From: a virus
Taxonomy: Duplodnaviria > Caudoviricetes
DNA: 64,000 bases
Strand: one strand, 5' to 3'
Virus record (IMG/VR): IMGVR_UViG_3300000203_000004
Coordinates: 1-64,000 of that record
The notes beneath the pieces are model-generated. The model saw nothing but the letters and a program-made list of their open reading frames with translations, did not search any database and was not told the origin of the DNA. How positions within the stretch are numbered: position 1 is the first letter of the stretch; each line of letters begins with the position of its first letter. Position numbers and translations under genes: made by a program. Positions 45,531 to 57,161 of this stretch are shown one piece after another.

Positions 45531-45533
45531 TTT

Positions 45534-45623: not shown

Positions 45624-46243
45624 TCGTATAACTTTATAAAGTCTTTCCCGTACTTCTCTACAACATGTTCTATGATAGGAGTCATTTTATCCTTATCATA
45701 GACTGTGATGTTGTGCGGGAACTGATCAATCTTTGCACGGACTAGTTCAGTCATGTATCCTTTGACCTCTACATATTCGCCGGACGCAAGTAAAAAATCC
45801 GGTATATAGTTTTTTGATATTCCGTTGTATGAATATCTAAACTTCTCATTATTTCTTGTAAAGATAGTGCCACACTCAAGATGATAGATGATCCATGCTA
45901 ACTCCCATGAGGAATCGCACCAATACCCCTTATACCATCCCTTTTTACCGCGACCACCAGAGGGGATATATCCGCCTAGGTTTTGTTTTTTCGCAGAAAT
46001 ACGCAACTTCTCTCTTGTACTGGCATTGACTATATGACCAAATAATGCTACGGAATTATTCATAACCCGTTGATCAGTTTCTTTGGTTAGCCCCTTGTTC
46101 CACGCAGCCGGCGATTGTTTAGTGCGCCTGCCTGCATTAGCCTTCCTAGTTTGAGCCTTGCCTTCGGCAGTATGAGCCATACGCTTATGGTTGCTTATCC
46201 CTGCCTCTTTGACTTCCTTGTTACATATTTCACATCTTATCAT
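45599..46243 (-). CDS. PD-(D/E)xK-type homing endonuclease
   Basis: DSSWE...YIPDF...EVKGY; AWNKGLTKETD. Confidence 0.75.
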   Translation of the reverse strand: MIRCEICNKEVKEAGISNHKRMAHTAEGKAQTRKANAGRRTKQSPAAWNKGLTKETDQRVMNNSVALFGHIVNASTREKLRISAKKQNLGGYIPSGGRGKKGWYKGYWCDSSWELAWIIYHLECGTIFTRNNEKFRYSYNGISKNYIPDFLLASGEYVEVKGYMTELVRAKIDQFPHNITVYDKDKMTPIIEHVVEKYGKDFIKLYEEDRSDGH

Positions 46244-46310
46244 AAAGTACCTCTATACTTTATTTATCTTTTTGAATCAAGATGCGCCAATAGACCACTC
46301 TGGCAACTCG

Positions 46311-46649
46311 CTATTTCATGTATTTTAGATGACCTTTCATTGCTGCCGCGCATGGGAATTTCTCACCTTTCCTAAATTTTTTGTTATTTAATGTGAACGA
46401 CTTTAACACACGGTCACCATTCCACCATGATCGTTGAATTTCAATGTAACCAGTTGATTTAAGTTGCTCACGCAATTTAACGAACTCCGGGTGATCTTCC
46501 GATCGTGTTGAGTAACAACGATCTTCACCTTTGATGATTTTGAATAGTTGTTCTGGAGTCAGATCATCTGGAGCAATGTTGTCATACATTCCACATTCTT
46601 CCTTCACGACAACTGAGGTCATAAAATTTTCATTAATCTCAACTTTCAT
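46311..46649 (-). CDS. hypothetical protein
   Basis: SD TAGGAG; DHPEF..LR..L...GYI..R.WWNGD. Confidence 0.65.
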   Translation of the reverse strand: MKVEINENFMTSVVVKEECGMYDNIAPDDLTPEQLFKIIKGEDRCYSTRSEDHPEFVKLREQLKSTGYIEIQRSWWNGDRVLKSFTLNNKKFRKGEKFPCAAAMKGHLKYMK

Positions 46650-46660
46650 GTTTGCTCCTA

Positions 46661-46788
46661 AATCATATTGAAACACACTCTCGATTTCGTATATCTTTTC
46701 ACCGCGCTGGTTAAGCTGCTTCGTCGTGTAGTTCAGGCTACCAACCTCTGAGACTAACGACCAATGATGAATATGTTTCAATATGATT
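46661..46788 (-). ncRNA. long-terminal-helix RNA, family 2, copy 1
   Basis: AATCATATTGAAACATA / TGTGTTTCAATATGATT inverted repeat. Confidence 0.5.
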
Positions 46789-47116
46789 TCAACACCCTGT
46801 AGCCGGGATTCTGTCGAGACCTAACATTAATCTACAGAAATATTATCCAACTTGCTCACACAGCCCGAGGGTCAATGCGCTTAGTTCTTCGATACTTCTG
46901 TCCTCGTCACCTTTCAAAGTAAGTCATAGGTGCCACAACCCGAACCAATAGGGCAAGTGTTCCCTGGTCCTGTTTGTGTTGCTTGTTATGTCTTGGTAGT
47001 TTGACGAAATACCAAAGTAAATTTTTACATAATACCAAAGTAAATTTCTCCTACTCGCACTTGCCACAAGTCCCGAACTTCCTCTGGCTTGCACCAGCGT
47101 TAGGTCGGATGTTGAA
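46788..47116 (-). ncRNA. rnpB: RNase P RNA
   Basis: P1 TTCAACATCC/GGGTGTTGAA; CR-I GAGGAAGTTCGGGAC; CR-V ACAGAATCCCGGCTAC. Confidence 0.85.
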
Positions 47117-47254
47117 TACCATAGTTAAGCATTTTAATATTCCTCTATACTGGCATACAGAGTTTTCGCAGCCTGCCAGGGCCACCGATAATTCTGTCGC
47201 TCAGGCAAATTATGGCTACATTGCGACAAGAAAGACCGTCAAAATACTTAACTA

Positions 47255-47328
47255 TGGTAGGGCCGGAGAGAATCGAACTCTCATAGACCGGTTAAAAGCC
47301 GGATATTCTACCTTTGAATTACAACCCC
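47255..47328 (-). tRNA. tRNA-Lys(TTT)
   Basis: Loop CTTTTAA, ACCA. Confidence 0.9.
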
Positions 47329-47440
47329 ATAATCTGTTGATTGTCTTTTTCGTGCCAATAACAGATCACAGGGTTCTATTATCGACACTATAGTTTACGG
47401 GTTTTTCGTTTCATATAGTCTCTCTTTCTTTAGTTAAAAT

Positions 47441-47555
47441 AACAGGATTCATTTTTTATTGACCGCTGTGCTACCGATACACTACGCACCCTAAGGTGGC
47501 CGGGAGTCGAACCCGATCGCGCGGTTTGGAATTTTAAAATGCTGTTAGGATCCTA
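47441..47555 (-). ncRNA. CAGCA-helix RNA copy 5: YrlA-like Y RNA with permuted tRNA body
   Basis: Closing helix + ACAGCA, then T-arm CGGGTTCGACTCCCG, loop-closed acceptor CACC-TTAG-GGTG, D-arm TAGTGTATCGGTAGCAC. Confidence 0.8.
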
Positions 47556-47653
47556 AATCTAATAGTGGATAAGCATGATCAAACCTGCTACTTACCCTTC
47601 AGACACCTTACCTTGATGCGTGGCGTTGTGATCAACCCGGTGTCTTACTAAAC

Positions 47654-47745
47654 TGGTACGAGCGGAGAGGATCGAACTCTCTCAAGAACCCTAATCTGGG
47701 GCTAAAAGGCTTATAAGACCTCTCTGACTGCCAAGTCTCGCTCGC
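47654..47745 (-). tRNA. non-canonical tRNA, anticodon TAT (Ile-UAU), long V-arm
   Basis: 7-bp acceptor, 4-nt D-loop, loop CTTATAA, V-arm AGCCC/GGGTT, ACCA. Confidence 0.75.
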
Positions 47746-47750
47746 AATAT

Positions 47751-47814
47751 AACAGGATGCACATTTGGTTTTTTTGAATAATAAAAAATTTTGTAATTTG
47801 CAGCAGGCATCCTA
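47751..47814 (-). ncRNA. CAGCA-helix RNA copy 6 (loop ATTATTC)
   Basis: AGGATGC-CTGCTGCAA...GCATCCTGTT. Confidence 0.7.
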
Positions 47815-47822
47815 AATTCTGA

Positions 47823-48020
47823 TTAAACTGTTGGCTCTACAGCCACAACCGCAGCACCAAATTGCTTACGCGGTTCAGCTTTGATCTTCACTTCGCTCTG
47901 AAGCTGGGCTTGGATCATCATCGCCTTAAACGCTGCACGAGTATCTGTGTCCTTGAACGGCAGAATGGCAAGCATTGTCTTGTTGCGCTTTGTCAGCTTG
48001 AAAGTTTTTGAGGGTTTCAT
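47823..48020 (-). CDS. small basic hypothetical protein
   Basis: SD AAAGGAAA; MKPSKTFKL. Confidence 0.65.
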   Translation of the reverse strand: MKPSKTFKLTKRNKTMLAILPFKDTDTRAAFKAMMIQAQLQSEVKIKAEPRKQFGAAVVAVEPTV

Positions 48021-48044
48021 TTGTTTCCTTTGTTAAATGATCTT

Positions 48045-48132
48045 TGGCGGAGTATGTAGGAATCGAACCTACTCGCCCATTTCTGGACGATTGATTAGCA
48101 ATCAATTGCCTTAACCGGTCGGCCAATACTCC
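48045..48132 (-). tRNA. tRNA-Ser(GCT)
   Basis: Loop TTGCTAA, long V-arm. Confidence 0.9.
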
Positions 48133-48139
48133 ATATTCT

Positions 48140-48214
48140 TGGTACATCGTGACAGTTTCGAACTGCCGACCCGCTGCGTGTAAAGCAGCCGCTCTACCCC
48201 TGAGCTAACGATGC
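48140..48214 (-). tRNA. tRNA-Val(TAC)
   Basis: Loop TTTACAC. Confidence 0.9.
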
Positions 48215-48219
48215 ATATC

Positions 48220-48296
48220 TGGTGCGCCAGGTGGGACTCGAACCCACAGAACTCGGATTTTAAGTCCGATACCTATACCAATTCGGTTACAAGCGC
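48220..48296 (-). tRNA. tRNA-Leu(TAA), short V-loop
   Basis: Loop CTTAAAA. Confidence 0.88.
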
Positions 48297-48342
48297 ATTA
48301 TTCTCTAATTCTACTACATTTTATTGTTGTAGTCAACAATTT

Positions 48343-48418
48343 TGGAGCGGGTAGCCGGTATCGAGCCGGTCTACTTCAGTTTGGAAGACTAATGTGTATC
48401 CATAAACACCTTACCCGC
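48343..48418 (-). tRNA. tRNA-Gly(TCC)
   Basis: Loop CTTCCAA, TCCA. Confidence 0.88.
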
Positions 48419-48492
48419 ATTGAATTCTAACCACACTACTTATCTCATTATACGCCGTGTGCTATGGCGAGTTTCTTTTTGTTATTTATTCT

Positions 48493-48567
48493 TGGTTCGG
48501 AGAGTCGGTCACGATCCGACACCGTAGGCATTATGAGTACCCCGTACATCCATTATACTATCTCCGA
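48493..48567 (-). tRNA. tRNA-Met/Ile2(CAT)
   Basis: Loop CTCATAA. Confidence 0.82.
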
Positions 48568-48573
48568 ATATAT

Positions 48574-48636
48574 AACAGGATGCACATTGGTTTCATTTAT
48601 ACAGTGAAATTTTTGTGATTTGCAGTAGGCATCCTA
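48574..48636 (-). ncRNA. CAGCA-helix RNA copy 7 (TTTCA-CTGTATAAA-TGAAA)
   Basis: AGGATGC-CTACTGCAA...GCATCCTGTT. Confidence 0.7.
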
Positions 48637-48643
48637 AATTGAA

Positions 48644-48858
48644 TTTGTAAGTTGTTCCACCACGTTATAGGAACCATTCACCCGAATTAACTAGTCCGGA
48701 CGGGTTTCGGTAAGTTACTTGGGATCTATCCAGATTATACACTCTTGTATCCCGGTCCCACTCAAGCGACCAGTCGGGCATTGCACCCGCATCCTTTTAC
48801 TGTTTTAGTTGTTCGAACAAACCTAGACAGCGTGACTTCTCTTGCTAACACTTACAAA
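48644..48858 (-). ncRNA. candidate ~215-nt structured RNA
   Basis: Ends pair TTTGTAAGT/ACTTACAAA; multiple GC hairpins; no ORF. Confidence 0.55.
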
Positions 48859-49043
48859 ACTGGACGAGGCTGCTGTCTCTCAACAGCATTATTTAACGCC
48901 TCGATAATTTGGCGTCGGTTATGCGAGTAGTGAGGGGTCATATCTCACGCTTGCCACAAGGTCATTTAAGACCAGCATATACTCAACCGACATATCTTGG
49001 TGGAGGTAAAGATAAACCTTGCGGCGCTTTCGGCTTTAATCAT

Positions 49044-49619
49044 CTATGCCCCCGTATCTTGGTTCTCCGGGGATTTATCCCTCTGAAGGATTTTATTTCT
49101 TCTCTTATAAATAGCAGCATTTGATATTCCGAACATTTTTTCTAATTCTGAAATACCGTGCTTACTCATTAGGTCTATCAAATCTACTTTATCCCAGTCA
49201 ACTTTGCGTCGATTAGTAGTAGCGCATTTGGGAGAACAAAAACTATTTGTAATAGGCTTATCACTACCACAAACAGGACATGAATCATATTCTTGAATTT
49301 TTCTGAATGAATTGAAGTTCTCATCGAACTTTTTGTATTCAGTAGGTAATTTCCGCAAACCTGCATGAATCTCACTGTGGCAGTTGTTACATACTAAAAT
49401 ACATTTTTTAAGTTCCTCAATAATCGAGGGCCATTTTTTAGGATTTGCCCGTATTGATCCAAATGCAAGTTCTTTATGGGCCGGGTCAATGTGATGGAAC
49501 GCTAATGCTTCTTTGCAGGCGTGATATCCACAACACTGACATTGGCCGCCCATTGCCTCAACCATTCTTTCTTTAGCGCGATGGCGCCATGCTTTTACTC
49601 TTTTGCTTGATACTGACAT
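49044..49619 (-). CDS. HNH endonuclease
   Basis: CQCCGY...FHHIDP..K...KCILVCNNCHSEIH. Confidence 0.85.
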   Translation of the reverse strand: MSVSSKRVKAWRHRAKERMVEAMGGQCQCCGYHACKEALAFHHIDPAHKELAFGSIRANPKKWPSIIEELKKCILVCNNCHSEIHAGLRKLPTEYKKFDENFNSFRKIQEYDSCPVCGSDKPITNSFCSPKCATTNRRKVDWDKVDLIDLMSKHGISELEKMFGISNAAIYKRRNKILQRDKSPENQDTGA

Positions 49620-49676
49620 ATTATAACCTCTAACCTTCGCATATATTTATGCCTAGTAGCGGTTATAGTTATAATT

Positions 49677-49755
49677 TGGCTCCGTATCTGGGTAACGATC
49701 CCAGCTAGTCATTGATTAACAGTCAAGTCCGTGCACCATGCTCGAATTCTACGGA
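49677..49755 (-). tRNA. tRNA-Asn(GTT)
   Basis: Loop CTGTTAA. Confidence 0.85.
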
Positions 49756-49763
49756 ATAAAACT

Positions 49764-49840
49764 TGGTGCCCCAGAGGAGACTCGAACTCCTAAAATACGG
49801 CTTCTAAGACCGGCATGTATACCAATTCCATCACCGGGGC
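49764..49840 (-). tRNA. tRNA-Leu(TAG), short V-loop
   Basis: Loop CTTAGAA. Confidence 0.88.
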
Positions 49841-49846
49841 AAATAA

Positions 49847-49910
49847 ATCAGGATGCTTTTTCTTTTCAAAGATAATGGTTTTGAAATTTAAGTTTGCTGG
49901 AAGCATCCTA
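49847..49910 (-). ncRNA. CAGCA-helix RNA copy 8
   Basis: AGGATGCTT-CCAGCAA...TTTCAAA-ACCATTATC-TTTGAAA...AAGCATCCTG. Confidence 0.7.
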
Positions 49911-49914
49911 TGTT

Positions 49915-49987
49915 TGGCGCTCCTAAGCGGAATCGAACCGCTCTGTGACAGGCTTCAAATCCTATTGACACAATAACAATCAAGAGC
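49915..49987 (-). pseudogene. degenerate tRNA (8-nt anticodon loop, aberrant D-arm)
   Basis: Intact acceptor, T-arm and GCCA; loop ATTTGAAG. Confidence 0.55.
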
Positions 49988-49994
49988 AAAAACT

Positions 49995-50069
49995 TGGCGC
50001 CGCTGATGGGACTCGAACCCACCTGATATTGATAGACAATCAATTGCCCTCCCTGAGGACTACAACGGC
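49995..50069 (-). tRNA. tRNA-Asp(GTC)
   Basis: Loop TTGTCTA. Confidence 0.85.
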
Positions 50070-50215
50070 TAAATTTGGGGACCTAGTTTTGCGTTATATG
50101 GCCCATCGAACGATTCTAATTTGTCAAGGAGAATTCTTCCTGCTTACTTTTTACAGGGTTCGGCTATAATATATGTGTGCCGTCCGAACAGTATATAATC
50201 TCACACATATTGTTT

Positions 50216-50289
50216 TGGTAACGCATAGGAGAGTTGAACTCCTCTACCCAGAATGAAAATCTGGTATCCTACCGATAGATGAATGCGTC
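50216..50289 (-). tRNA. tRNA-Glu(TTC)
   Basis: Loop TTTTCAT. Confidence 0.85.
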
Positions 50290-50294
50290 ATAAA

Positions 50295-50683
50295 TTGCTG
50301 GCATACTCTACGTGAGGATTCTTACCCCGTCTTTTACAAGTTGTACTTCTATGAACACAACACGGATCACCGAGTAGCCAAGATGATCGACATTTACTTT
50401 GTGGCTCTTGCTTTCCACTTGATTCAATAGGTGCTATGCTTCAGGACGACTTGCATAGCGTTGCGAGAATTCCGCCACATTCAGTGTCTAGAACACCTTA
50501 GTAACTCGCGTAATCCACTTAACCGGTTTCCCGATCCAGGTTTTTGATTTTGCGATTTCCGAGCGACGAAGGATTTTACACTGTTAAACTGAAGTGACCC
50601 CATATTTCGATGCACTGTATGGCACCGGCCCCTACTCTCTTATCCGCGCGTAGTCCTAATTAAAGCACATCGCGTTTCAGCAA
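50295..50683 (-). ncRNA. candidate ~390-nt structured RNA between tRNA-Tyr and tRNA-Glu
   Basis: Fills the spacer exactly; ends TTGCTG/CAGCAA pair; no ORF >=60 aa. Confidence 0.5.
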
Positions 50684-50687
50684 ACTT

Positions 50688-50773
50688 TGGTGGATGATGA
50701 TGGTAACGATCCATCAGAGCCTTGCGGCGTCCGGGTTACAGCCGGAACCGTCTCCTTAACGGTATAATCATCC
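50688..50773 (-). tRNA. tRNA-Tyr(GTA)
   Basis: Loop CTGTAAC, V-arm. Confidence 0.88.
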
Positions 50774-51153
50774 TAAATCATATTCAAACACATTATTGGG
50801 AATTCAACCCAAGACCGCCTAGCGGTTCGACGCTGATAATATGCTTGAATATGATTCCTCGCCCTGGGGTCGCTTCACAGCGTCCTTGCTTTCTTCAACC
50901 TGCTTTCGCAGTAAGATCGCTCTCGGGTATCGAGGAAATCATTCGATAAGTTTTTAATGAACTAAGTTCAATCGGGGTGTCTTTCGACACATTACATGCT
51001 TAGGGCTCTGTATGCCTTTATCACAAACATTTAGTTCACCTCACGCAACATCATTGTGTTTCGCTACCATAACGTGCTGCTTTGCAGACTCCGTTCAGAA
51101 CCCGATTAAAGAACTAAGTTGATAAGTTCGATCACTTTTTCAACGTATGCTGT

Positions 51154-51182
51154 ATTATAGCAGAAGATTGATTAATTGTCAA
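51154..51182 (-). promoter_or_regulatory. sigma70 promoter inside tRNA array, followed by two boxA-like sites
   Basis: TTGACA-17-TATAAT; AGTTCTTTAA (~51107-51116) and AGTTCATTAA (~50955-50964). Confidence 0.65.
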
Positions 51183-51314
51183 GTTCCCTTCCTGCTTACT
51201 CACTGTACTTGCTCTCACTGAGCGATTTTCCAGTGCCTCTGCCGTTTTGTTCTCAACCTTCAATCAATCTAAGAGTCTATTATAGCAGAAAGTCCATTTA
51301 ATGTCAACTTTGTT

Positions 51315-51389
51315 TGGTCCGGCGTGAGGGAATCGAACCCCCATAATGACTTTAGAAGAATCATGTCCTATCCGTTGAACGAACGCCAG
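51315..51389 (-). tRNA. tRNA-Arg(TCT)
   Basis: Loop CTTCTAA. Confidence 0.88.
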
Positions 51390-51393
51390 AAAT

Positions 51394-51747
51394 TTATGCT
51401 TGTCTATGTAGGAAATGTTCCTTGACCGAAGTTGGGCCGAAGTATTTTTGTATGATATCTTTGACAACTTGTGGTTCGAACTCTTTACAACTGAACACAT
51501 CAAAATATGCAGTGCCGTCGAGTTCCATGAAGTGAGCGCAGATGTTGCTGGTCTCAATCAGTTGAACCAAGCTGAACCCTTGCTTAGGATCGCCTAGCAA
51601 CATAAACTCAATCATGGGTTTTCCGTGAGCAACCATGTCAATAGCAGGAACAAGTTCAGTGATGAACTTTTTAATTTGTGCTGCACTGGCAATGTTTTCA
51701 TTGCATCCTGCACAGTCTAACATTAAATGGTATCCCCAATATTTCAT
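51394..51747 (-). CDS. speD: S-adenosylmethionine decarboxylase proenzyme
   Basis: WGYHL.LD; QLIETS.I..HF; DVFSCK.F. Confidence 0.85.
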   Translation of the reverse strand: MKYWGYHLMLDCAGCNENIASAAQIKKFITELVPAIDMVAHGKPMIEFMLLGDPKQGFSLVQLIETSNICAHFMELDGTAYFDVFSCKEFEPQVVKDIIQKYFGPTSVKEHFLHRQA

Positions 51748-51771
51748 GTAAGTCCTTTGTTGCTATTATTT

Positions 51772-51838
51772 ATCAGGATGCTTTTTTACGGTTTGATTAT
51801 GAGTCAAATTTTATGTAATGTTTGCTGAACGCATCCCA
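51772..51838 (-). ncRNA. CAGCA-helix RNA copy 9 carrying Met-CAU anticodon stem-loop
   Basis: GGGATGC-GTTCAGCAA...TTTGA-CTCATAA-TCAAA...GCATCCTG. Confidence 0.75.
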
Positions 51839-51864
51839 TGTTTGGCTCTACCGATGAAAATTCT

Positions 51865-51939
51865 TGGTGCCCAATGTCTGATTCGAACAGACGACCTACC
51901 GCTTACAAGGCGGTTGCTCTACCCCTGAGCCAATCGGGC
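51865..51939 (-). tRNA. tRNA-Thr(TGT)
   Basis: Loop TTGTAA. Confidence 0.9.
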
Positions 51940-52001
51940 GATTGGATGATACTGACTTTCATCAGCATCATCTTTATTTATACTCTGTCGCTTCGTCTAA
52001 A

Positions 52002-52562
52002 TTAATTTAGCAGGATACGCGAGTGCTTCGGAACACCAGTCATCAAATATTCCATTTGATCAGCCAGGATGTTCCTGTTAGCCAGAATCATGTTTTCGAA
52101 ATGATTCGGCGCGTATGGCACATACAGCAGGGCCATGTTTGCTTCCTTCAGAGTCTCGTGACCCTTTCGGCTGTTACATTCCTTGCAGGCTGTGACTACG
52201 TTCATCCAAGTGTTAGCACCACCTAAAAATTTAGGGACAATGTGGTCCCTAGATAGATGATGATAGTTCGGCGTATGTTCACCGCAGTATGCACACGTGT
52301 ACCGGTCCCGACCGAACAGAGTCTTGTTCGTCAGCGCAACCGTACCATGCTTCAACGGGTTGAACCCGTGACCCTTGATAGCGATTATGCTGGTTGATTC
52401 GATGTATGATTGGGTGCCGTCTTCTTGGAATCCGCCGCGATATTTTGCCACAATTTCGCCCAGTGACCATGCTACTGAATCAGTTGCGTGGTACAGGATT
52501 GCGTCATCGTAAGAAATCCACTGACGCGGAATTCCGGAAATATCTAATGCTAAAATACTCAT
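52002..52562 (-). CDS. HNH (McrA-like) endonuclease
   Basis: RD.YTCAYCG...SRDHIVP...GG.NTW.NVVTAC..CN..K. Confidence 0.88.
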   Translation of the reverse strand: MSILALDISGIPRQWISYDDAILYHATDSVAWSLGEIVAKYRGGFQEDGTQSYIESTSIIAIKGHGFNPLKHGTVALTNKTLFGRDRYTCAYCGEHTPNYHHLSRDHIVPKFLGGANTWMNVVTACKECNSRKGHETLKEANMALLYVPYAPNHFENMILANRNILADQMEYLMTGVPKHSRILLN

Positions 52563-52602
52563 GCTGGCTCCTTTTAAATGTGTCACTGTATTTAGTTGCG
52601 GT

Positions 52603-52677
52603 TGGCGCGCCTTGCAGGAATCGAACCTGCACCTCTTGTTTCGAAGACAAGGATGATATCCATTTCACCAAAGGCGC
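52603..52677 (-). tRNA. tRNA-Arg(TCG)
   Basis: Loop CTTCGAA. Confidence 0.88.
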
Positions 52678-52684
52678 ATTGTAT

Positions 52685-52774
52685 TGGCGGAAGTAGTAGG
52701 ATTCGAACCCACGGACCCCTTTCAGGGTCTCCGCATTTCAAGTGCGGTGCAATCGGCCACTCTGCCATACTTCC
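52685..52774 (-). tRNA. tRNA-Ser(TGA)
   Basis: Loop CTTGAAA, long V-arm. Confidence 0.9.
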
Positions 52775-52782
52775 ATAAATTT

Positions 52783-52859
52783 TGGTGCCCACGGGGAGAG
52801 TCGAACTCCCAAACTACGGCTTCTTAGACCGTTGACTTTACCAATTTGTCTACACGGGC
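52783..52859 (-). tRNA. tRNA-Leu(AAG)
   Basis: Loop CTAAGAA (A34). Confidence 0.85.
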
Positions 52860-52861
52860 AT

Positions 52862-52936
52862 TGGCACAGGACCGGGGATTCGAACCCCGAACGACAGCTT
52901 CAGAGGCTGTAGAGTTACCAATTACTCTAATCCCGT
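52862..52936 (-). tRNA. tRNA-Gln(CTG)
   Basis: Loop CTCTGAA. Confidence 0.85.
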
Positions 52937-52941
52937 ATGTT

Positions 52942-53015
52942 TGGCGGGCTGACTAGGACTCGAACCTAGACTGACGGTTTTGGAGACCGCGATGCTGCCA
53001 TTACACTATCAACCC
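52942..53015 (-). tRNA. tRNA-Trp(CCA)
   Basis: Loop CTCCAAA. Confidence 0.9.
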
Positions 53016-53026
53016 ATACTAACTCT

Positions 53027-53102
53027 TGGTCTCCATAGAAGGATTTGAACCTTCACCGCATGCTCCCAAAGCATGTACGCTACCAGATTACGCCATACGG
53101 AG
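53027..53102 (-). tRNA. tRNA-Pro(TGG)
   Basis: Loop TTTGGGA. Confidence 0.88.
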
Positions 53103-53161
53103 AGTTGATTGGATGCGGAAACAGTTTTTGCGCTATTTCTGCATAGATGTATAAATACAGT

Positions 53162-53875
53162 ATGAATAAATTTCAACTGTATTGTTCTTGTATTTATTGC
53201 AAGTTGTCGGTAACCGCACAAAACTTATCAGCACATTACTCGCGGCATGAGAGGGCGAAACCCTGTGCCCAGTGCGGGAAACTAATAATGGCCGGCAAGT
53301 TCTGTTCTAAATCATGTAGCGGAATATTCAATAATAAACTACGATTACCGGAATCACGAATCAACGGTGGAATTACATTACTTAAAAATAAGAAAAAACT
53401 CGGATGGGAACCCAAGTTAAAAACTAAGTTACCTCGCCCAGTTAAAAGCAGAACTTGCGTAGAGTGTGGTAAAATAGATACGACCAGTGGTCGTTTTCAA
53501 TCCGACAAATGTATGTTTTGTAATGATTCGCTAACTTATCGGGAATCATGTAAATTTACCTTTAATCTAAAAGACTACCCGGCAGAATTTAATTTGGCAT
53601 TGCTCACTGAACATGGCATGTTTAATCCAAAAAGCAACCAGTCTGGTGTCTCCAGAGACCATCTATTGTCAGTTTCCTACGGGAAAACAAATAGAATAGA
53701 TCCTAAAATTATTTCTCATCCGGCTAATTGTCAACTGATGACACAGACCGAAAACAAGAAAAAACAACATCATTCATCCATCACATTTGACGAGTTACTC
53801 GGTCGTATTGCTGCTTGGGATACAAAATACAAAGATGCGGGGTCAGGGCATGCTCCTGAAAGCGAAGGCTTATGA
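53162..53875 (+). mobile_element. HNH-like endonuclease gene inserted in the 3' end of a tRNA(CAT)
   Basis: SRDH..SV..G...ISHPANC..M...N; flanked by GATGCGG at 53112-53118 and 53834-53840. Confidence 0.75.
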
Positions 53876-53902
53876 GACCCCGCGGCCACTCGGCTCCCCG
53901 CA
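53834..53902 (-). tRNA. tRNA-Met(CAT), fMet-like, CCA displaced
   Basis: TGCGGGG/CCCCGCA acceptor, loop CTCATAA, atypical D and T loops. Confidence 0.65.
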
Positions 53903-53934
53903 TTTTTGTACTCTGAACTTTATTTATCATTACC

Positions 53935-54008
53935 TGGTATCTCTGGAAGGAATCGAGCCTTCGTATCTGTCGAGTCAGAACAGTGTTCTACCATTGAACT
54001 ACAGAGAT
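53935..54008 (-). tRNA. tRNA-Val(GAC)
   Basis: Loop CTGACTC. Confidence 0.82.
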
Positions 54009-54014
54009 AAATTT

Positions 54015-54091
54015 TGGTGCGCGAGGCGAGAGTCGAACTCGCAGGTTCCACCTTCTGAGGATGGCGACTTTACCAATTTGTCTACACGCGC
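54015..54091 (-). tRNA. tRNA-Leu(CAG)
   Basis: Loop CTCAGAA. Confidence 0.88.
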
Positions 54092-54095
54092 ATAT

Positions 54096-54154
54096 AACAG
54101 GATACTTATTTTTCAATTAAAAGTTGAATTTTTGATTTTGCTGTTCGTATCCTA
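54096..54154 (-). ncRNA. CAGCA-helix RNA copy 10 carrying Lys-UUU anticodon stem-loop
   Basis: AGGATAC-GAACAGCAA...TTCAA-CTTTTAA-TTGAA...GTATCCTGTT. Confidence 0.78.
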
Positions 54155-54259
54155 AAACTGATTCGTGAAGTGGAATCGAACCACGCTTGGCAAAGTGACG
54201 CCTACCCAGCTTACGCTTCTCGGACTTCCTGTGCTACCATTACACCATTCACAAATTTC

Positions 54260-54334
54260 TGGTCCCGCTAGGCCGAATCGAACAGCCATCTAGGATTTAG
54301 GAAATCCCTATTCTATCCGTTGAACTATAGCGAG
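54260..54334 (-). tRNA. tRNA-Arg(CCT)
   Basis: Loop TTCCTAA. Confidence 0.88.
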
Positions 54335-54521
54335 AAATATTCTTAAGGCTGTCATCTGTTACAAGTGTGCGGGAATCGAACCCACGCCTCCGACTTGAAT
54401 GTCGGCGTTGCTTCCGCTGAACTAACACCTCAACACCATCTTTTCGTGCGCCAACACTAGGGATGATGAGACAGATTAAGCACTGCTGCCAATTGGCGTC
54501 AACAGCCTTAAGAACATTGTT

Positions 54522-54599
54522 TGGTACCCTATCTCAGATTCGAACTGAGAGAATAACAGTTTTTGAGGCTGCTGACTTTACCAATTTGTCTAATAGGGC
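54522..54599 (-). tRNA. tRNA-Leu(CAA)
   Basis: Loop CTCAAAA. Confidence 0.85.
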
Positions 54600-54607
54600 A
54601 TAATATT

Positions 54608-54685
54608 TGGCGGTTCGTATGGGTTTCGAACCCATCTGTATCTTCCGTGACAGGGAAGCGTCCACTCCGAGCAGACTCACGAACC
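54608..54685 (-). tRNA. tRNA-Asp(GTC)
   Basis: Loop CTGTCAC. Confidence 0.88.
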
Positions 54686-54693
54686 GAATTGTT

Positions 54694-54770
54694 TGGTGCG
54701 GGATAGGAGATTCGAACTCCTACTTACGATTTGGAAGACCGTTGTGCTAGCCGTTGAACACTAATCACGC
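54694..54770 (-). tRNA. tRNA-Gly(TCC)
   Basis: Loop CTTCCAA. Confidence 0.85.
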
Positions 54771-54777
54771 ATTGTTT

Positions 54778-54860
54778 TGGTGGAGACGTGTGGTTTCGAT
54801 CCACTCCCCGAAGGGCGAATTTTACAGACTCGCTGCTGAAGCCATCAGCTTTCCGTCTCC
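54778..54860 (-). tRNA. tRNA-Tyr(GTA)
   Basis: Loop CTGTAAA. Confidence 0.82.
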
Positions 54861-54868
54861 GAATTGTT

Positions 54869-54940
54869 TGGTGGACCTATGGGGTAACGATCCCCAAGCA
54901 TCGCATTGCAAGTGCGTTTCCCTACCCATTAGGTAAGCCC
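54869..54940 (-). tRNA. tRNA-Ala(TGC)
   Basis: Loop CTTGCAA, G3:U70; identical to 56967-57038. Confidence 0.8.
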
Positions 54941-54995
54941 ATGAATTGTTTGGTGGACCCTAAGTTTGTCATCATTGGCCCTTTGGAGATTTTCT

Positions 54996-55070
54996 TGGTG
55001 GACCGTCGGGGAATCGAACCCCGAATTTCTGGTTGCAAACCAGATGTGTTCCCGTTAGCACTAACAGCCC
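54996..55070 (-). tRNA. tRNA-Ala(TGC)
   Basis: Loop TTTGCAA, G3:U70. Confidence 0.9.
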
Positions 55071-55080
55071 ATAAATTATT

Positions 55081-55158
55081 TGGCTCCGCAACTAGGGATC
55101 GAACCTAGCTTATTCTTCATTAACAGTGAAGCGCCTACACCATGCTGACTCTTGCGGA
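55081..55158 (-). tRNA. tRNA-Asn(GTT)
   Basis: Loop CTGTTAA. Confidence 0.85.
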
Positions 55159-55166
55159 ATAAATTT

Positions 55167-55240
55167 TGGTCACCGATGTAGGAGTCGAACCTACGCCTCC
55201 TGGTTCCGGGCCAGGGCTGCTACCGTAACAACTATCGGAG
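55167..55240 (-). tRNA. tRNA-Pro(CGG)
   Basis: Loop CCCGGAA (C33). Confidence 0.8.
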
Positions 55241-55246
55241 AAATAT

Positions 55247-55341
55247 AACAGGTTCGTTTTGTACTTTTTGATTTGCGTGAGAAATCCAAACTCACATGAT
55301 ACGGCAATTACCGTGATTTTGTTTTTGCTGAACCGAACCTA
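55247..55341 (-). ncRNA. CAGCA-helix RNA copy 11 (hairpin loop TTTGGATTT)
   Basis: AGGTTCG-GTTCAGCAA...CGAACCTGTT. Confidence 0.72.
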
Positions 55342-55346
55342 AAAAT

Positions 55347-55403
55347 AACAGGATGCACATTTGGTTTCATTTACAGTGAAAGTTAATTGCTGTAGGCATC
55401 CTA
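55347..55403 (-). ncRNA. CAGCA-helix RNA copy 12 carrying Tyr-GUA anticodon stem-loop
   Basis: AGGATGC-CTACAGCAA...TTTCA-CTGTAAA-TGAAA...GCATCCTGTT. Confidence 0.78.
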
Positions 55404-55408
55404 AAGAG

Positions 55409-55482
55409 TGGTCACCGCGGGCAGAGTCGAACTGCCGCCCCCTGGATCCAAGCCAGGAACGCTACCGTAACGCTTCGCGGAG
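55409..55482 (-). tRNA. tRNA-Pro(TGG)
   Basis: Loop CTTGGAT. Confidence 0.85.
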
Positions 55483-55488
55483 AAATAT

Positions 55489-55550
55489 AACAGGATAGTT
55501 TTTGTCGCTAGACATCCAAAGTTAGCTTATTGTTTGCTGAACCTATCCTA
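55489..55550 (-). ncRNA. CAGCA-helix RNA copy 13 carrying Pro-UGG-like loop
   Basis: AGGATAG-GTTCAGCAA...GCTAAC-TTTGGAT-GTCTAGC...CTATCCTGTT. Confidence 0.75.
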
Positions 55551-55554
55551 AAAC

Positions 55555-55629
55555 TGGTACCTGGTGCCTGAATCGAACAGGCCACATTCCGCTAATCGGG
55601 CAGACGTTCTTCCACTGAACTAACCAGGC
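55555..55629 (-). tRNA. tRNA-Ile(GAT)
   Basis: Loop CCGATTA. Confidence 0.82.
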
Positions 55630-55635
55630 ATATCT

Positions 55636-55712
55636 TGGAGTGACGGGTGAGATTCGAACTCACGAACAACGGGTTTGCAATCCATGCCATTAGGCCTCTT
55701 TGGTACCGTCAC
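55636..55712 (-). tRNA. tRNA-Cys(GCA)
   Basis: Loop TTGCAAA, U73. Confidence 0.88.
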
Positions 55713-55720
55713 ATAAATTT

Positions 55721-55796
55721 TGGAATCAGTACGGAGAATTGAACTCACGATTTGCGACTTGAGGGGCCACCGTCCTTACCCTTAGACGATACTGAT
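55721..55796 (-). tRNA. tRNA-Glu(CTC)
   Basis: Loop CCCTCAA. Confidence 0.75.
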
Positions 55797-55927
55797 ATAA
55801 TTAGTGCTATGTCCTTTTGCGAGGACTCTAGTTGTAGTTTGAGAGGCGCCCTTAGGCCCAATTAATGGATCCAGATATATCTGGGGAAGCCGTCCTACCA
55901 CAGCATTAAGCGATGCTGTGCATTCTT

Positions 55928-56004
55928 TGGTGCACCGCCCGGGATTTGAACCCGGATCTTTCTGATTAAGAGTCAGACATAATAAGCCGTTATACGAACG
56001 GTGC
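55928..56004 (-). tRNA. tRNA-Lys(CTT)
   Basis: Loop CTCTTAA. Confidence 0.88.
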
Positions 56005-56094
56005 ATAATTTGGGAGTAGACTGAGGGATCGAACCTCAACGCAACTAGTATACACCGGCAATGCCGGCTGCGGTCCATTCTCTACTCATAAACT

Positions 56095-56169
56095 TGGTAT
56101 CCTGCAGGGGTTTTGCTCCCCTCTCAATAGTTTGAAGGACTATCGGCCACACTAGCTGCCTCGCAGGAT
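56095..56169 (-). tRNA. tRNA-Glu(TTC)
   Basis: Loop CCTTCAA; atypical T-loop. Confidence 0.7.
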
Positions 56170-56175
56170 ATATCT

Positions 56176-56250
56176 TGGAGCGGGTATCCGGTAACGATCC
56201 GGAATCTTAACTTTGGCAAAGTTATGTGCGTCCATTCTCACTCTACCCGC
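56176..56250 (-). tRNA. tRNA-Gly(GCC)
   Basis: Loop TTGCCAA. Confidence 0.85.
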
Positions 56251-56260
56251 ATAAATTGTT

Positions 56261-56335
56261 TGGTGGTGGTAGAAGGTAACGCTCCTTCGTCTAAGCCTTA
56301 TGAGAGCCTCGTTGCTACTTTTGAACTATACCACT
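56261..56335 (-). tRNA. tRNA-Met/Ile2(CAT)
   Basis: Loop CTCATAA. Confidence 0.75.
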
Positions 56336-56340
56336 GTATT

Positions 56341-56416
56341 TGGTGCAACCTGTAGGAATCGAACCTACTTCATCGAATTTTCAGTCCGCTGCTATGACCA
56401 CATCAGCTAAGGTTAC
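56341..56416 (-). tRNA. tRNA-Phe(GAA)
   Basis: Loop CTGAAAA. Confidence 0.88.
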
Positions 56417-56422
56417 ATATTT

Positions 56423-56499
56423 TGGAGCCCACGTTCAGCCTCGAACTGAATCCTCAACGTTACGAAGGTTGCGTACCACCAGGGGCATACTTCGCGGGC
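56423..56499 (-). tRNA. tRNA-Thr(CGT)
   Basis: Loop TTCGTAA. Confidence 0.75.
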
Positions 56500-56509
56500 G
56501 AATACTTTT

Positions 56510-56583
56510 TGGTGCCCCACGACAGAATCGAACTGCCATCCACGGATTACAAAACCGTTATACTTCCATTGTACTAGTAGGGC
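56510..56583 (-). tRNA. tRNA-Thr(TGT)
   Basis: Loop TTTGTAA. Confidence 0.88.
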
Positions 56584-56726
56584 TAATAGTTTTTCAGAGG
56601 CTACCTATCCTTGTTCAGGGGACTCAATAGTTTGTCTCGTATGGAGGAGGTCTTGCTTTTTTCGCGTGAAAAAATCCGATCAGTCGGCGCTACTTGCGAC
56701 TCGACTCCCACGTCTATCTGAAATCT

Positions 56727-56800
56727 TGGTGCCCCCACTAGGAATCGAACCTAGTGTTAATCCTTACCAAGGATTTAGTCTACCATTAGCTTATGGGGGC
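56727..56800 (-). tRNA. tRNA-Thr(GGT)
   Basis: Loop TTGGTAA. Confidence 0.88.
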
Positions 56801-56806
56801 GAATTT

Positions 56807-56882
56807 TGGGGTAAATGACGGGATTCGAACCCGCTCTAAGAGTTTCACAGACTCTGGTGCTAACCGATACACTACATCTACC
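56807..56882 (-). tRNA. tRNA-His(GTG)
   Basis: Loop CTGTGAA, G-1:C73. Confidence 0.9.
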
Positions 56883-56888
56883 ATAACT

Positions 56889-56963
56889 TGGTACCCCTGA
56901 AAGGAATTAAACCTTTATCTGAACCTTCGCAGGGTTCCGTGATATTCATTTCACTACAGGGAT
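56889..56963 (-). tRNA. tRNA-Arg(GCG)
   Basis: Loop CTGCGAA. Confidence 0.78.
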
Positions 56964-56966
56964 GTT

Positions 56967-57038
56967 TGGTGGACCTATGGGGTAACGATCCCCAAGCATC
57001 GCATTGCAAGTGCGTTTCCCTACCCATTAGGTAAGCCC
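56967..57038 (-). tRNA. tRNA-Ala(TGC), duplicate
   Basis: Identical to 54869-54940. Confidence 0.8.
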
Positions 57039-57161
57039 ATTAAATTGTCTCGAACCCTGTTAATTCAGGCTATGCACCCTCACCAGATGCCAACGCCGCC
57101 TGGCGTTCAGAGGTTAGTTCCTCATTTTGTAACACCCTTTATTGGGATGCTGGTCGATATT

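What the first reader, a model, noticed from the sequence alone, without database searches (positions are those of the whole stretch)
47751..55550. Isolated anticodon stem-loops as cargo: candidate decoys for anticodon nucleases
Seen: three short family members carry a perfect 5-bp stem with a canonical 7-nt anticodon loop and no other tRNA parts. They are TTCAA-CTTTTAA-TTGAA (Lys-UUU, 54096-54154), TTTGA-CTCATAA-TCAAA (Met-CAU, 51772-51838) and TTTCA-CTGTAAA-TGAAA (Tyr-GUA, 55347-55403). A bulged variant is GCTAAC-TTTGGAT-GTCTAGC (Pro-UGG, 55489-55550), nearly matching the CTTGGAT loop of the adjacent tRNA-Pro. Other variant loops are CTGTATAAA (48574), TTTGGATTT (55247) and ATTATTC (47751, next to the UAU tRNA). 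Known: tRNA-Lys is cut by PrrC and PARIS AriB, tRNA-fMet by VapC, and tRNA-Tyr by colicin E5 and retron PtuAB. Inference: protein-scaffolded anticodon mimics titrate or trap host anticodon nucleases, or recruit modification/repair enzymes.
Basis: partly seen in the sequence, partly recalled or inferred. Interest (0 to 1): 0.92.

Follow-up and report, generated by a model that had tools for sequence, protein, structure and literature searches.

The report
Bare anticodon hairpins on phage Y-like RNAs
Inside its large tRNA gene cluster this freshwater phage encodes ~55-60-base RNAs that carry only a tRNA anticodon hairpin on a conserved "handle" shared with RNAs next to a Ro60-like protein gene. 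Selection clearly keeps the hairpin in many phages, and it may be a bait for bacterial tRNA-cutting defence enzymes, which is untested.

Summary
All seven listed hairpins are present on the minus strand, the strand of the 44 tRNA genes. An eighth member (49850-49909) was not listed. Each sits inside one RNA design: a covarying 7-10-bp closing helix, a YC(A/U)GCAA motif, variable cargo, then CCU-GUU.

The design recurs in over 200 copies in uncultured phage contigs and in two cultured phages. It travels with a DUF2828 protein whose model matches Ro60. Of 107 non-redundant short members, 50% carry a 7-nt loop (8% in shuffles) and 34% fit Y-U-NNN-R-A (0.2% in shuffles). A second sample, found through the protein, repeats this.

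The displayed "anticodons" are strongly skewed to Lys-UUU, Thr-UGU and Tyr-GUA. These are rare among the real tRNAs of the same contigs, and they are published targets of PrrC, PARIS AriB and retron/Septu PtuAB.

So anticodon-arm mimicry is well supported. The decoy function is only a plausible inference (about 0.35). The match to neighbouring tRNAs is not general. Neither Rfam nor the papers I searched describe the family. This scan has already noted the family in at least 42 other genomes and the decoy idea in at least 26.

The parts
54099..54153 (-). Short family member m5. Handle AGGAUAC/GUAUCCU, motif ACAGCAA. Cargo at 54112-54128 is UUCAA-CUUUUAA-UUGAA (Lys-UUU type anticodon arm).
   Evidence: (CM 69.1 bits, E 7e-16). 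Identical cargo occurs in L064 and L077. It lies 6 nt after tRNA-Leu(gag) and 7 nt before tRNA-Leu(cag).
51775..51837 (-). Short family member m4. Handle GGGAUGC/GCAUCCU. Cargo at 51792-51808 is UUUGA-CUCAUAA-UCAAA (CAU loop: Met or Ile2 type).
   Evidence: (51.1 bits). The same loop sits on a different handle in Aeromonas phage 4_4572. The member lies upstream of an AdoMet-decarboxylase-like ORF, 51394-51747.
55350..55402 (-). Short family member m7. Cargo at 55365-55381 is UUUCA-CUGUAAA-UGAAA (Tyr-GUA type anticodon arm).
   Evidence: (55.9 bits). The CUGUAAA loop recurs in other contigs on other stems.
55492..55549 (-). Short family member m8. Cargo at 55507-55526 is GCUAAC-UUUGGAU-GU(C)UAGC, a bulged stem with a 7-nt UGG loop.
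   Evidence: (63.1 bits). Identical cargo occurs in L020 and L115, but sister copies have loops of 8-13 nt, so this subtype is not a strict anticodon arm.
48577..48635 (-). Short family member m2. Cargo at 48591-48609 is UUUCA-CUGUAUAAA-UGAAA. Its 9-nt loop is that of m7 plus 2 nt.
   Evidence: (63.1 bits).
47754..47813 (-). Short family member m1. Cargo at 47770-47788 is six A-U pairs closing the loop AUUAUUC.
   Evidence: (61.2 bits). Identical cargo occurs in L077.
49850..49909 (-). It has a 7-bp stem and the 9-nt loop ACCAUUAUC (49864-49886).
   Evidence: (47.4 bits).
55250..55340 (-). Medium family member m6. Handle AGGUUCG/CGAACCU. It carries two hairpins; the second, at 55277-55295, is GUGAG-UUUGGAUUU-CUCAC.
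   Evidence: (26.6 bits, E 2e-4).
36204..37616 (-). DUF2828 + DUF7788 protein (470 aa): a Ro60-like ring with a vWA domain. It is the inferred protein partner of the handle.
   Evidence: Pfam. AlphaFold2 model with pLDDT 79.5. The top 13 Foldseek matches are all Ro60 structures: 9kop, 9l5y, 1yvp, 2nvo, 9nen.
37745..38182 (-). Two long-cargo members with the same handle (38017-38182 and about 37745-38015), just upstream of the DUF2828 gene.
45336..58146 (-). Array of 44 tRNA genes in which the short members occupy tRNA-like slots.

Best explanation
These are the short members of a widespread phage RNA family. The family is built from a 7-10-bp closing helix and a YC(A/U)GCAA motif (the handle) plus exchangeable cargo. 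They are transcribed with the tRNA array and probably released by the same processing as tRNAs.

The handle most likely docks on the phage's Ro60-like DUF2828 protein, as Y RNAs dock on Ro60. The cargo is a bare tRNA anticodon arm: an AU-rich 5-bp stem with a 7-nt loop C-U-NNN-A-A, most often Lys-UUU, Thr-UGU or Tyr-GUA.

I think it works as a bait. Proteins that read an anticodon arm bind the displayed hairpin, and may cut it. The most likely such proteins are the host's tRNA-cutting defence nucleases. They would be diverted from real tRNAs or held on the ribonucleoprotein.

Shown here:
- the family exists and its helix covaries;
- the anticodon-arm shape is under selection;
- the anticodon choice is skewed;
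- the family is genomically linked to the Ro60-like gene.

Inferred:
- binding of the handle to the protein (about 0.7);
- bait for anticodon-arm readers in general (about 0.65);
- defence nucleases as the specific target (about 0.35).
For: Family and handle:
- The covariance model finds 8 members in the window's array and 212 in 119 contigs that were found with a 5' handle motif.
- The helix shows four pair types at two positions.

Link to the protein:
- A DUF2828 homologue lies in 35 of 119 held stretches and in 18 of 49 further contigs, including both near-complete ones.
- Starting from the protein instead, 72 of 78 loci have members, and all 131 model hits lie upstream of the gene on its strand.
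- The protein model matches Ro60 structures over its whole length.

Anticodon-arm shape:
- 53 of 107 short members have a 7-nt loop, against 8% in shuffles. 36 of 107 fit Y-U-NNN-R-A, against 0.19% in shuffles.
- C32 is 74%, U33 85%, A37 83% and A38 83%, in cargo that is 47% A, 29% T, 14% C and 10% G.
- The sample found through the protein repeats this: 31% against 7.5%, and 19% against 0.1%.
- The loop CUUUUAA sits on at least six different paired stems.
- CUUUUAA and CUCAUAA arms also occur on a diverged handle in cultured Aeromonas phage 4_4572.

Anticodon skew:
- UUU makes up 13 and UGU 8 of 38 canonical loops. Among 1121 real tRNAs of the same contigs they are 2.6% and 3.8%.
- The top loops in the second sample are CUUUUAA, CUUGUAA and CUGUAAA.

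Literature:
- PrrC reads mainly the anticodon arm and cuts synthetic anticodon-arm analogues (PMC1950546).
- AriB cuts Lys-UUU, then Thr-UGU, then Asn-GUU, at U36AAUC|A41 (PMC12409363).
- A Ro60-like protein of phage Bas63 counters a defence system (PMC11482910).

Own tRNAs compared:
- The window's own tRNA-Lys, tRNA-Thr and tRNA-Tyr have GC-rich, different stems.
- None of 29 real phage tRNA-Lys(UUU) keeps U39-C40-A41, whereas 4 of 13 mimics do.
Against: - No binding, cleavage or rescue data exist.
- A one-to-one decoy is a poor answer to a multiple-turnover nuclease unless it traps the enzyme.
- AriB also contacts the D-loop (PMC12409363), and Septu PtuAB cuts the variable loop of tRNA-Tyr (PMC13096335, abstract). 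An anticodon arm alone lacks both.
- PrrC also reads base modifications (PMC1950546), which these RNAs may or may not carry.
- Documented phage escapes use functional replacement tRNAs (PMC11555353, PMC12409363).
- About half of the short members, and 4 of the 8 here, have loops of other lengths or sequences.
- Mimic stems are 22% GC, so U39 is expected from composition alone.
- The copies are related by descent, so counts overstate the number of independent events.
- The hosts of these freshwater phages, and their defence systems, are unknown.
- In this window the anticodon-arm members lie 10-19 kb from the DUF2828 gene.
Confidence: 0.4

Rival explanations
1. The displayed anticodon arm is a bait or tether for non-defence proteins that read anticodon arms. 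Candidates are tRNA-modifying enzymes (t6A37 or i6A37 makers, wobble-base modifiers), aminoacyl-tRNA synthetases, and tRNA repair enzymes. This would match how Y RNAs tether Ro60 to other enzymes.
For: - 76% of canonical mimic loops have U36-A37, against 36% of real tRNAs, and most of the rest have A36-A37. By my own knowledge these are the contexts of the t6A and i6A classes.
- YrlA is a substrate of tRNA-modifying enzymes (PMC4201824).
- Other cargos in the family carry T-arms or whole tRNA-like bodies. That fits a general display of tRNA parts.
- Three radical-SAM genes lie between the gene and the array.
Against: - No single modification enzyme covers Lys-UUU, Thr-UGU and Tyr-GUA together.
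- Nothing explains why a phage would gain from titrating or recruiting such enzymes.
- No RNA ligase (RtcB, Rnl1, Rnl2) was found in the held record, but that record is estimated to be only 29% complete, so this carries no weight.
Confidence: 0.3
2. The hairpin has no function tied to the anticodon. It is a relic of tRNA-derived cargo, or simply a stabilising hairpin in a partner RNA whose working part is the handle.
For: - The family also carries whole and permuted tRNA-like bodies, so the short forms could be reduced descendants.
- Half of the short members lack a canonical loop.
- Folding energies are unremarkable.
Against: - C32, U33, A37, A38 and the 7-nt length are kept across many different covarying stems and across diverged handles. 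Neutral relics in 71% A+T sequence would not keep them.
- The stems are not copies of the phage's own tRNA stems.
Confidence: 0.12
3. The elements are punctuation for the tRNA array (RNase P, RNase E or RNase Z processing signals, promoters or terminators) rather than RNAs with their own role.
For: They sit 5-6 nt after one tRNA and 7-12 nt before the next, with AU-rich flanks.
Against: - Most tRNA junctions in the array have no such element.
- Members also stand in tandem directly upstream of DUF2828 genes, without tRNAs.
- Promoter-like sites are at chance level (25 found, 22.4 expected), and no terminator-like site lies on a member's strand.
- A processing signal would not need an anticodon-type loop.
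Confidence: 0.05
4. The hairpins act as mini-tRNAs on the ribosome or on mRNA. Codon-anticodon pairing at AAA, ACA or UAC codons would slow host translation or sense codon supply.
For: By my own knowledge, isolated anticodon arms can bind the 30S decoding site in vitro. The loops are canonical U-turn loops.
Against: They would compete poorly with ternary complexes. The model gives no role to the conserved handle or the Ro60-like protein. No data bear on it.
Confidence: 0.05

Closest known systems
Bacterial and phage Y RNAs of the YrlA type with Ro60/Rsr (Rfam RF02553; Chen et al. 2014, PMC4201824)
   Same: - Small RNAs encoded near a Ro60-type gene on the same strand.
- The 5' and 3' ends pair into a conserved helix.
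- A variable module mimics tRNA.
   Different: - The protein is the DUF2828/DUF7788 branch, not a Pfam TROVE hit.
- The handle has a different sequence, and RF02553 does not match: only 20-bit hits on tRNA T-arms against a threshold of 69.
- YrlA shows the T-arm, acceptor and D-arm and lacks an anticodon arm. These RNAs show only the anticodon arm.
- There are many copies per genome, scattered through a tRNA array.
Thermus phage phiLo Ro60 with Yrl1/Yrl2 (PMC12135203; PDB 9kop, 9l5y)
   Same: A phage-encoded Ro60-like ring with partner RNAs encoded upstream of its gene. It is the best structural match to the model.
   Different: phiLo's RNAs are classical stem-bulge-stem Y RNAs with a CGAA motif. 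They have no anticodon-arm cargo and are not in a tRNA array. Sequence identity to the protein is 16%.
Phage replacement tRNAs that escape tRNA-cutting defences: T5 tRNA-Lys/Thr/Asn against PARIS (PMC12409363), and tRNA-Tyr and tRNA-Lys against retron-Eco7 and PrrC170 (PMC11555353)
   Same: The same tRNA species are involved (Lys-UUU, Thr-UGU, Tyr-GUA), and they are encoded in phage tRNA clusters.
   Different: Those are complete, decoding tRNAs that replace the cut ones. The RNAs here cannot be charged or decode, so any protective effect would have to be by binding.
Phage Bas63 gp130, a Ro60-like protein that counters the ppl defence (PMC11482910)
   Same: A Ro60-like phage protein encoded next to a tRNA cluster, with a measured counter-defence phenotype. 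The authors guessed that some of the 'tRNAs' are Y RNAs.
   Different: No partner RNA was identified there. ppl is not known to act on tRNA. In Felix O1, a relative of Bas63, my model gives only weak hits (E 0.009).
Dictyostelium Class I RNAs (Rfam RF01414)
   Same: A short closing stem followed by a CAGCAA-containing motif and a variable hairpin. Six members here hit the model.
   Different: The hits are below threshold (22-28 bits against 41.5). The organisms are unrelated. I treat this as a resemblance, not membership.
Protein-binding anticodon-arm mimics in mRNA (E. coli thrS operator) and phage RNA anti-CRISPRs that mimic CRISPR repeats. Both are from my own knowledge and were not checked here.
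   Same: An RNA copies the part of a cellular RNA that a protein recognises and thereby occupies that protein.
   Different: The thrS operator is a cis-regulatory mRNA element. RNA anti-CRISPRs mimic crRNA, not tRNA. Neither sits on a Ro60-type handle.

Membership tests
Y RNA (partner RNA of a Ro60-type protein) | Encoded close to the Ro60-type gene and on its strand | tested here: met
   For the family: 72 of 78 protein-anchored loci have members, and all 131 hits are upstream on the gene's strand. A homologue also lies in 35 of 119 stretches anchored on the RNA. In this window two long members abut the gene. The anticodon-arm members are on the same strand but 10-19 kb away.
Y RNA (partner RNA of a Ro60-type protein) | 5' and 3' ends pair into a conserved helix that carries the protein-binding site | tested here: inconclusive
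   The helix is present and covaries, although the first 7 pairs were part of my selection rule. Binding to the protein cannot be tested with these tools.
YrlA (Rfam RF02553) | Match to the covariance model, and a tRNA-like module made of T-arm, closed acceptor stem and D-arm | tested here: not met
   There is no hit at the gathering score. The only hits are about 20 bits, on tRNA T-arms. None of the 111 short members has a T-loop motif.
Ro60 / TROVE-vWA protein | HEAT-repeat ring followed by a vWA domain | tested here: met
   AlphaFold2 model, pLDDT 79.5, pTM 0.74. The top 13 Foldseek matches are Ro60 structures over about 500 aligned columns, TM 0.4-0.54. There is no match by sequence to PDB, and Pfam gives DUF2828 + DUF7788.
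tRNA | Cloverleaf with acceptor stem, D-arm and T-arm | tested here: not met
   Not called by ARAGORN or by Rfam RF00005.
Canonical tRNA anticodon arm | 5-bp stem, 7-nt loop, U33, purine 37 | tested here: met
   - Fully met by m4, m5 and m7.
- m8 has a bulged stem.
- m1 has U33 but U37.
- m2, m3 and m6 have 9-nt loops.
- Family-wide, 34% fit against 0.19% in shuffles.
Decoy or sponge RNA against a defence nuclease | Binds or is cut by the nuclease and relieves defence | not testable with these tools
   Only indirect evidence exists: the anticodon skew and published target lists (PMC12409363, PMC1950546, PMC11555353).
Dictyostelium Class I RNA (RF01414) | Score at or above the gathering threshold | tested here: not met
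   21.9-28.2 bits against 41.5.

The most novel reading that the evidence does not exclude
Phages deploy a protein-scaffolded library of bare anticodon arms (Lys, Thr, Tyr and others) on a Ro60-like particle. The particle traps or misdirects the host's tRNA-cutting immune nucleases. This would be the first RNA-mimic countermeasure against tRNA-targeting immunity, and it would give a function to the widespread phage Ro60-like proteins.
Probability: 0.3. Interest if true: 0.9.

Novelty: new variant of a known kind. Interest (0 to 1): 0.72.

Why it matters
Ro60-like DUF2828 genes occur in 711 sequenced phage records, including Felix O1-like, T4-like, Listeria, Staphylococcus and mycobacterial phages. 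No partner RNA or mechanism has been assigned to them. One homologue already has a counter-defence phenotype (PMC11482910).

tRNA cleavage is now recognised as a common bacterial defence, and the only known phage answers are replacement tRNAs. An RNA family that displays just the part of a tRNA these nucleases read, skewed to the tRNAs they are known to cut, gives a concrete hypothesis. It can be tested in cultured phages that carry the family (Aeromonas phage 4_4572, Synechococcus phage BUCT-ZZ01).

Even if the decoy idea fails, the family extends tRNA mimicry by Y-type RNAs to the one tRNA domain that YrlA lacks. It also flags RNAs that tRNA finders and Rfam currently miss.

Tried and rejected
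- **Rfam.** At gathering thresholds and at E up to 5-10, only tRNAs and sub-threshold look-alikes were found.
- **Close relatives among sequenced phages.** Megablast of the region found only single tRNA matches.
- **Sequence search of the DUF2828 protein against PDB.** No hit. The fold search was needed.
- **Match between a mimic loop and its neighbouring tRNA.** Rejected: 0 of 23 and 1 of 27.
- **Promoter or terminator reading.** Rejected: sites are at chance level and not on the members.
- **RNA ligase genes (RtcB, Rnl2, Rnl1) in the held record.** None found, but the record is estimated to be 29% complete and the Rnl1 search had no positive control. This is uninformative.
- **Expression.** Two metatranscriptome runs hold short contigs over relatives of m5 (54092-54163) and over neighbouring tRNAs. 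Contigs cannot show ends, strand or level, and DNA carry-over cannot be excluded, so I do not count this as evidence.
- **Felix O1.** It gave only weak model hits. Its handle, if any, differs.
- **Literature.** Searches for DUF2828, for Y RNA or TROVE in phages, and for anticodon-arm decoys found no description of this family.
- **Two failed calls.** exceeded the size limit for genome handles and were resent.

Full report
**Setting**

The window is the first 64 kb of a 103-kb viral record. CheckV rates the record 29% complete, so it is probably a fragment of a much larger phage. The same DNA occurs in freshwater metagenomes from several studies. ARAGORN finds 44 tRNA genes, all on the minus strand, between 45.3 and 58.1 kb. 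No close relative exists among sequenced phages.

**The observation**

- Three have perfect 5-bp stems and 7-nt loops: CUUUUAA at 54112-54128, CUCAUAA at 51792-51808 and CUGUAAA at 55365-55381.
- One has a bulged stem and the loop UUUGGAU (55507-55526).
- Three are variants: 9-nt loops at 48591-48609 and 55277-55295, and AUUAUUC closed by six A-U pairs at 47770-47788.
- An eighth element, at 49850-49909, was not listed.

All eight share one frame: U-rich leader, AGG plus four variable bases, two to four bases, YC(A/U)GCAA, cargo, the complement of the first seven bases ending in CCU, then GUU. The seven-base stem differs between copies and always stays complementary (GGAUGC, GGAUAC, GGUUCG, GGAUAG). 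The frame gives five matches in the window against 0.13 expected. Folding energies alone are unremarkable (z -0.2 to -2.1). Rfam has no family for the elements. Six copies touch the Dictyostelium Class I model below threshold.

**The family elsewhere**

- A covariance model built from 98 short copies finds seven window copies at E of 5e-10 or better and the eighth at 2e-4. It finds 212 copies in those contigs.
- A pattern-plus-pairing scan gives 233 closed members. Their lengths are bimodal: about 50-70 nt and about 90-130 nt.
- None of the 111 short members has a T-loop motif, while 48 of 76 medium ones do. So the family carries anything from a lone hairpin to tRNA-like bodies.
- Short members sit in tRNA arrays: 61 of 111 have a tRNA within 20 nt downstream and 59 of 111 within 20 nt upstream. 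Typical spacings are 5-6 nt after one tRNA and 7-12 nt before the next.
- The family is also present in cultured phages. Synechococcus phage BUCT-ZZ01 has one copy directly upstream of its DUF2828 gene. Aeromonas phage 4_4572 has eight tandem copies directly upstream, on a diverged handle (AGAAU.../...AUUCU).

**Link to the protein**

ORF 36204-37616 (minus strand) is DUF2828 + DUF7788. It has no sequence match in PDB. An AlphaFold2 model built on 33 homologues (pLDDT 79.5) has Ro60 structures as its 13 best Foldseek matches, led by the Thermus phage phiLo Ro60.

Two long-cargo members with the same handle lie just upstream of this gene. Of the 119 RNA-anchored stretches, 35 encode a homologue within the few kilobases held. 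So do 18 of 49 further contigs searched whole, including both near-complete ones. Most of the negative contigs are small fragments.

In the reverse direction, 78 new loci were anchored on the protein. They gave 131 model hits in 72 loci, every one upstream of the gene and on its strand. Three of the six loci without a hit hold fewer than 70 nt of upstream sequence.

Binding itself is an inference, by analogy with Ro60 and Y RNAs (PMC4201824, PMC12135203).

**Is the cargo an anticodon arm?**

I took the best hairpin in the cargo of each of 107 non-redundant short members:
- 53 (50%) have a 7-nt loop, against 8% for shuffled cargo.
- 36 (34%) fit Y-U-NNN-R-A, against 0.19% for shuffled cargo.
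- Within the 7-nt loops, C32 is 74%, U33 85%, A37 83% and A38 83%. The cargo overall is 47% A, 29% T, 14% C and 10% G.
- The most common loop frame, CU-NNN-AA, is also the commonest frame of the 1121 real tRNAs in these contigs (51%).
- The loop CUUUUAA sits on at least six different fully paired stems, and CUUGUAA on three. The loop is held while the stems drift and compensate.

The protein-anchored sample, after removing sequences already seen, repeats the result with a looser scan. Of 91 members, 31% have 7-nt loops (7.5% in shuffles) and 19% fit the pattern (0.1% in shuffles). The Aeromonas phage carries AUUUGA-CUUUUAA-UCAAA and UCGA-CUCAUAA-UCGA on its diverged handle. Its protein is about 40% identical to the window's, so the Lys-type and CAU-type arms seen in this window persist across that distance.

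About half of the short members, and four of the eight here, do not have a canonical loop. The UGG subtype (m8) varies freely in loop length among its relatives.

**Which anticodons?**

- Among 38 canonical loops, UUU accounts for 13 and UGU for 8. UCU, GUA, UGA and GGA follow with 2-3 each.
- In the 1121 real tRNAs of the same stretches, UUU is 2.6% and UGU 3.8%.
- From cargo composition, UUU would be about 2% and UGU under 1%.
- The replicate sample is again led by CUUUUAA (6), CUUGUAA (5) and CUGUAAA (3).
- 76% of the loops have U36, against 36% of real tRNAs.
- The mimic's anticodon is unrelated to its neighbours: 0 of 23 downstream and 1 of 27 upstream tRNAs match.
- The mimics are not copies of the phage's own tRNAs. 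In this window tRNA-Lys, tRNA-Thr, tRNA-Tyr and tRNA-Met have different, GC-rich stems. Family-wide, mimic stems are 22% GC against 60% for real anticodon stems.

**Bearing on the decoy idea**

Points in favour, from published work:
- PrrC reads mainly the anticodon arm of tRNA-Lys and cuts synthetic anticodon-arm analogues (PMC1950546).
- PARIS AriB cuts Lys-UUU, then Thr-UGU, then Asn-GUU, next to the sequence U36AAUC|A41. T5 escapes with variant tRNAs (PMC12409363).
- Retron-Eco7 PtuAB depletes tRNA-Tyr (PMC11555353).
- A Ro60-like protein of phage Bas63 counters a defence system, and its authors guessed that Y RNAs hide among the neighbouring tRNAs (PMC11482910).

So the three commonest displayed arms are three known targets of anti-phage tRNases.

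One further hint: none of 29 real phage tRNA-Lys(UUU) keeps U39-C40-A41, while 4 of 13 Lys mimics do. Member m4 in this window also has it, with a CAU anticodon. The E. coli lysT arm is GUUGA-CUUUUAA-UCAAU. The low GC of mimic stems could explain part of this.

Points against:
- AriB also reads the D-loop.
- Septu PtuAB is reported to cut the variable loop of tRNA-Tyr (PMC13096335, abstract).
- PrrC also uses base modifications.
- Known escapes are functional tRNAs whose anticodon is needed (PMC11555353).
- A simple competitor is a weak answer to a turnover enzyme.
- The hosts here are unknown.

**Alternatives**

- A bait for modification, charging or repair enzymes fits the U36-A37 and A36-A37 bias and the precedent of YrlA being modified (PMC4201824). 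I rate it close behind the decoy reading.
- A neutral relic is unlikely given the conservation pattern.
- Processing punctuation, promoters and terminators are not supported. They also fail to explain the tandem copies upstream of DUF2828 genes that have no tRNAs between them.

**Verdict**

Mimicry of the anticodon arm on a Ro60-type handle is well supported. The decoy mechanism is plausible but unproven. I file it as a new variant of the Ro60/Y-RNA kind: it fails the YrlA membership test and shows the one tRNA domain YrlA lacks.

I found no description in Rfam 15 or in the papers searched. This scan has already reported the same family in at least 42 other genomes, and the anticodon-arm decoy idea in at least 26, with similar verdicts. 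Those are unchecked AI notes, not independent evidence.

Noticed in passing
window 54346-54506 (minus strand): In one metatranscriptome run, two short contigs join 54506 back to 54346 ('goes back 161'). The DNA contig of the same sample runs straight through. The unit holds the odd tRNA-like gene 54361-54431 (ARAGORN 'tRNA-???', Rfam tRNA 35.9 bits) plus 75 nt upstream. It could be a circular or permuted RNA, a tandem copy in a relative, or an assembly artefact at depth 2-2.5.
   Followed up: partly
window 40913-45454 (minus strand): Three consecutive radical-SAM proteins lie between the Ro60-like gene and the tRNA array: one with a B12-binding domain, one with SPASM, one with a 4Fe-4S single-cluster domain. 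A weak PP-loop/Asn-synthase-like ORF lies at 38645-39793. They may be RNA- or nucleotide-modifying enzymes.
   Followed up: no
window 51394-51747 (minus strand): An S-adenosylmethionine-decarboxylase-like gene (Pfam E 6.5e-19) sits inside the tRNA array, directly downstream of family member m4.
   Followed up: no
window 52002-52586 (minus strand): An HNH endonuclease gene lies inside the tRNA array. ORFs 49044-49619 (weak treble-clef zinc motif) and 53147-53875 (no family) also interrupt the array.
   Followed up: no
window 47753-47812, 48576-48634, 49849-49908, 51774-51836, 54098-54152, 55349-55401 (minus strand): Six family members hit the Rfam model of Dictyostelium Class I RNAs below threshold (22-28 bits against 41.5). 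The shared layout is a closing stem followed by a CAGCAA-containing motif.
   Followed up: partly
L123 9896-10138 (Cronobacter phage S13) and L122 1514-1630 (Aeromonas phage 4_4572): Deposited annotations-121-nt 'tRNA-Ser', 'tRNA-OTHER' and 'tRNA-Leu' genes beside or near the DUF2828 gene. These over-long 'tRNAs' may be tRNA-like cargo members of this or a sister RNA family.
   Followed up: no
window 45-58 kb and loci L001-L119: The contigs that carry the family hold very large tRNA arrays: 1121 ARAGORN calls in 81 stretches of at most 15 kb, with CAU the commonest anticodon at 88 calls.
   Followed up: partly
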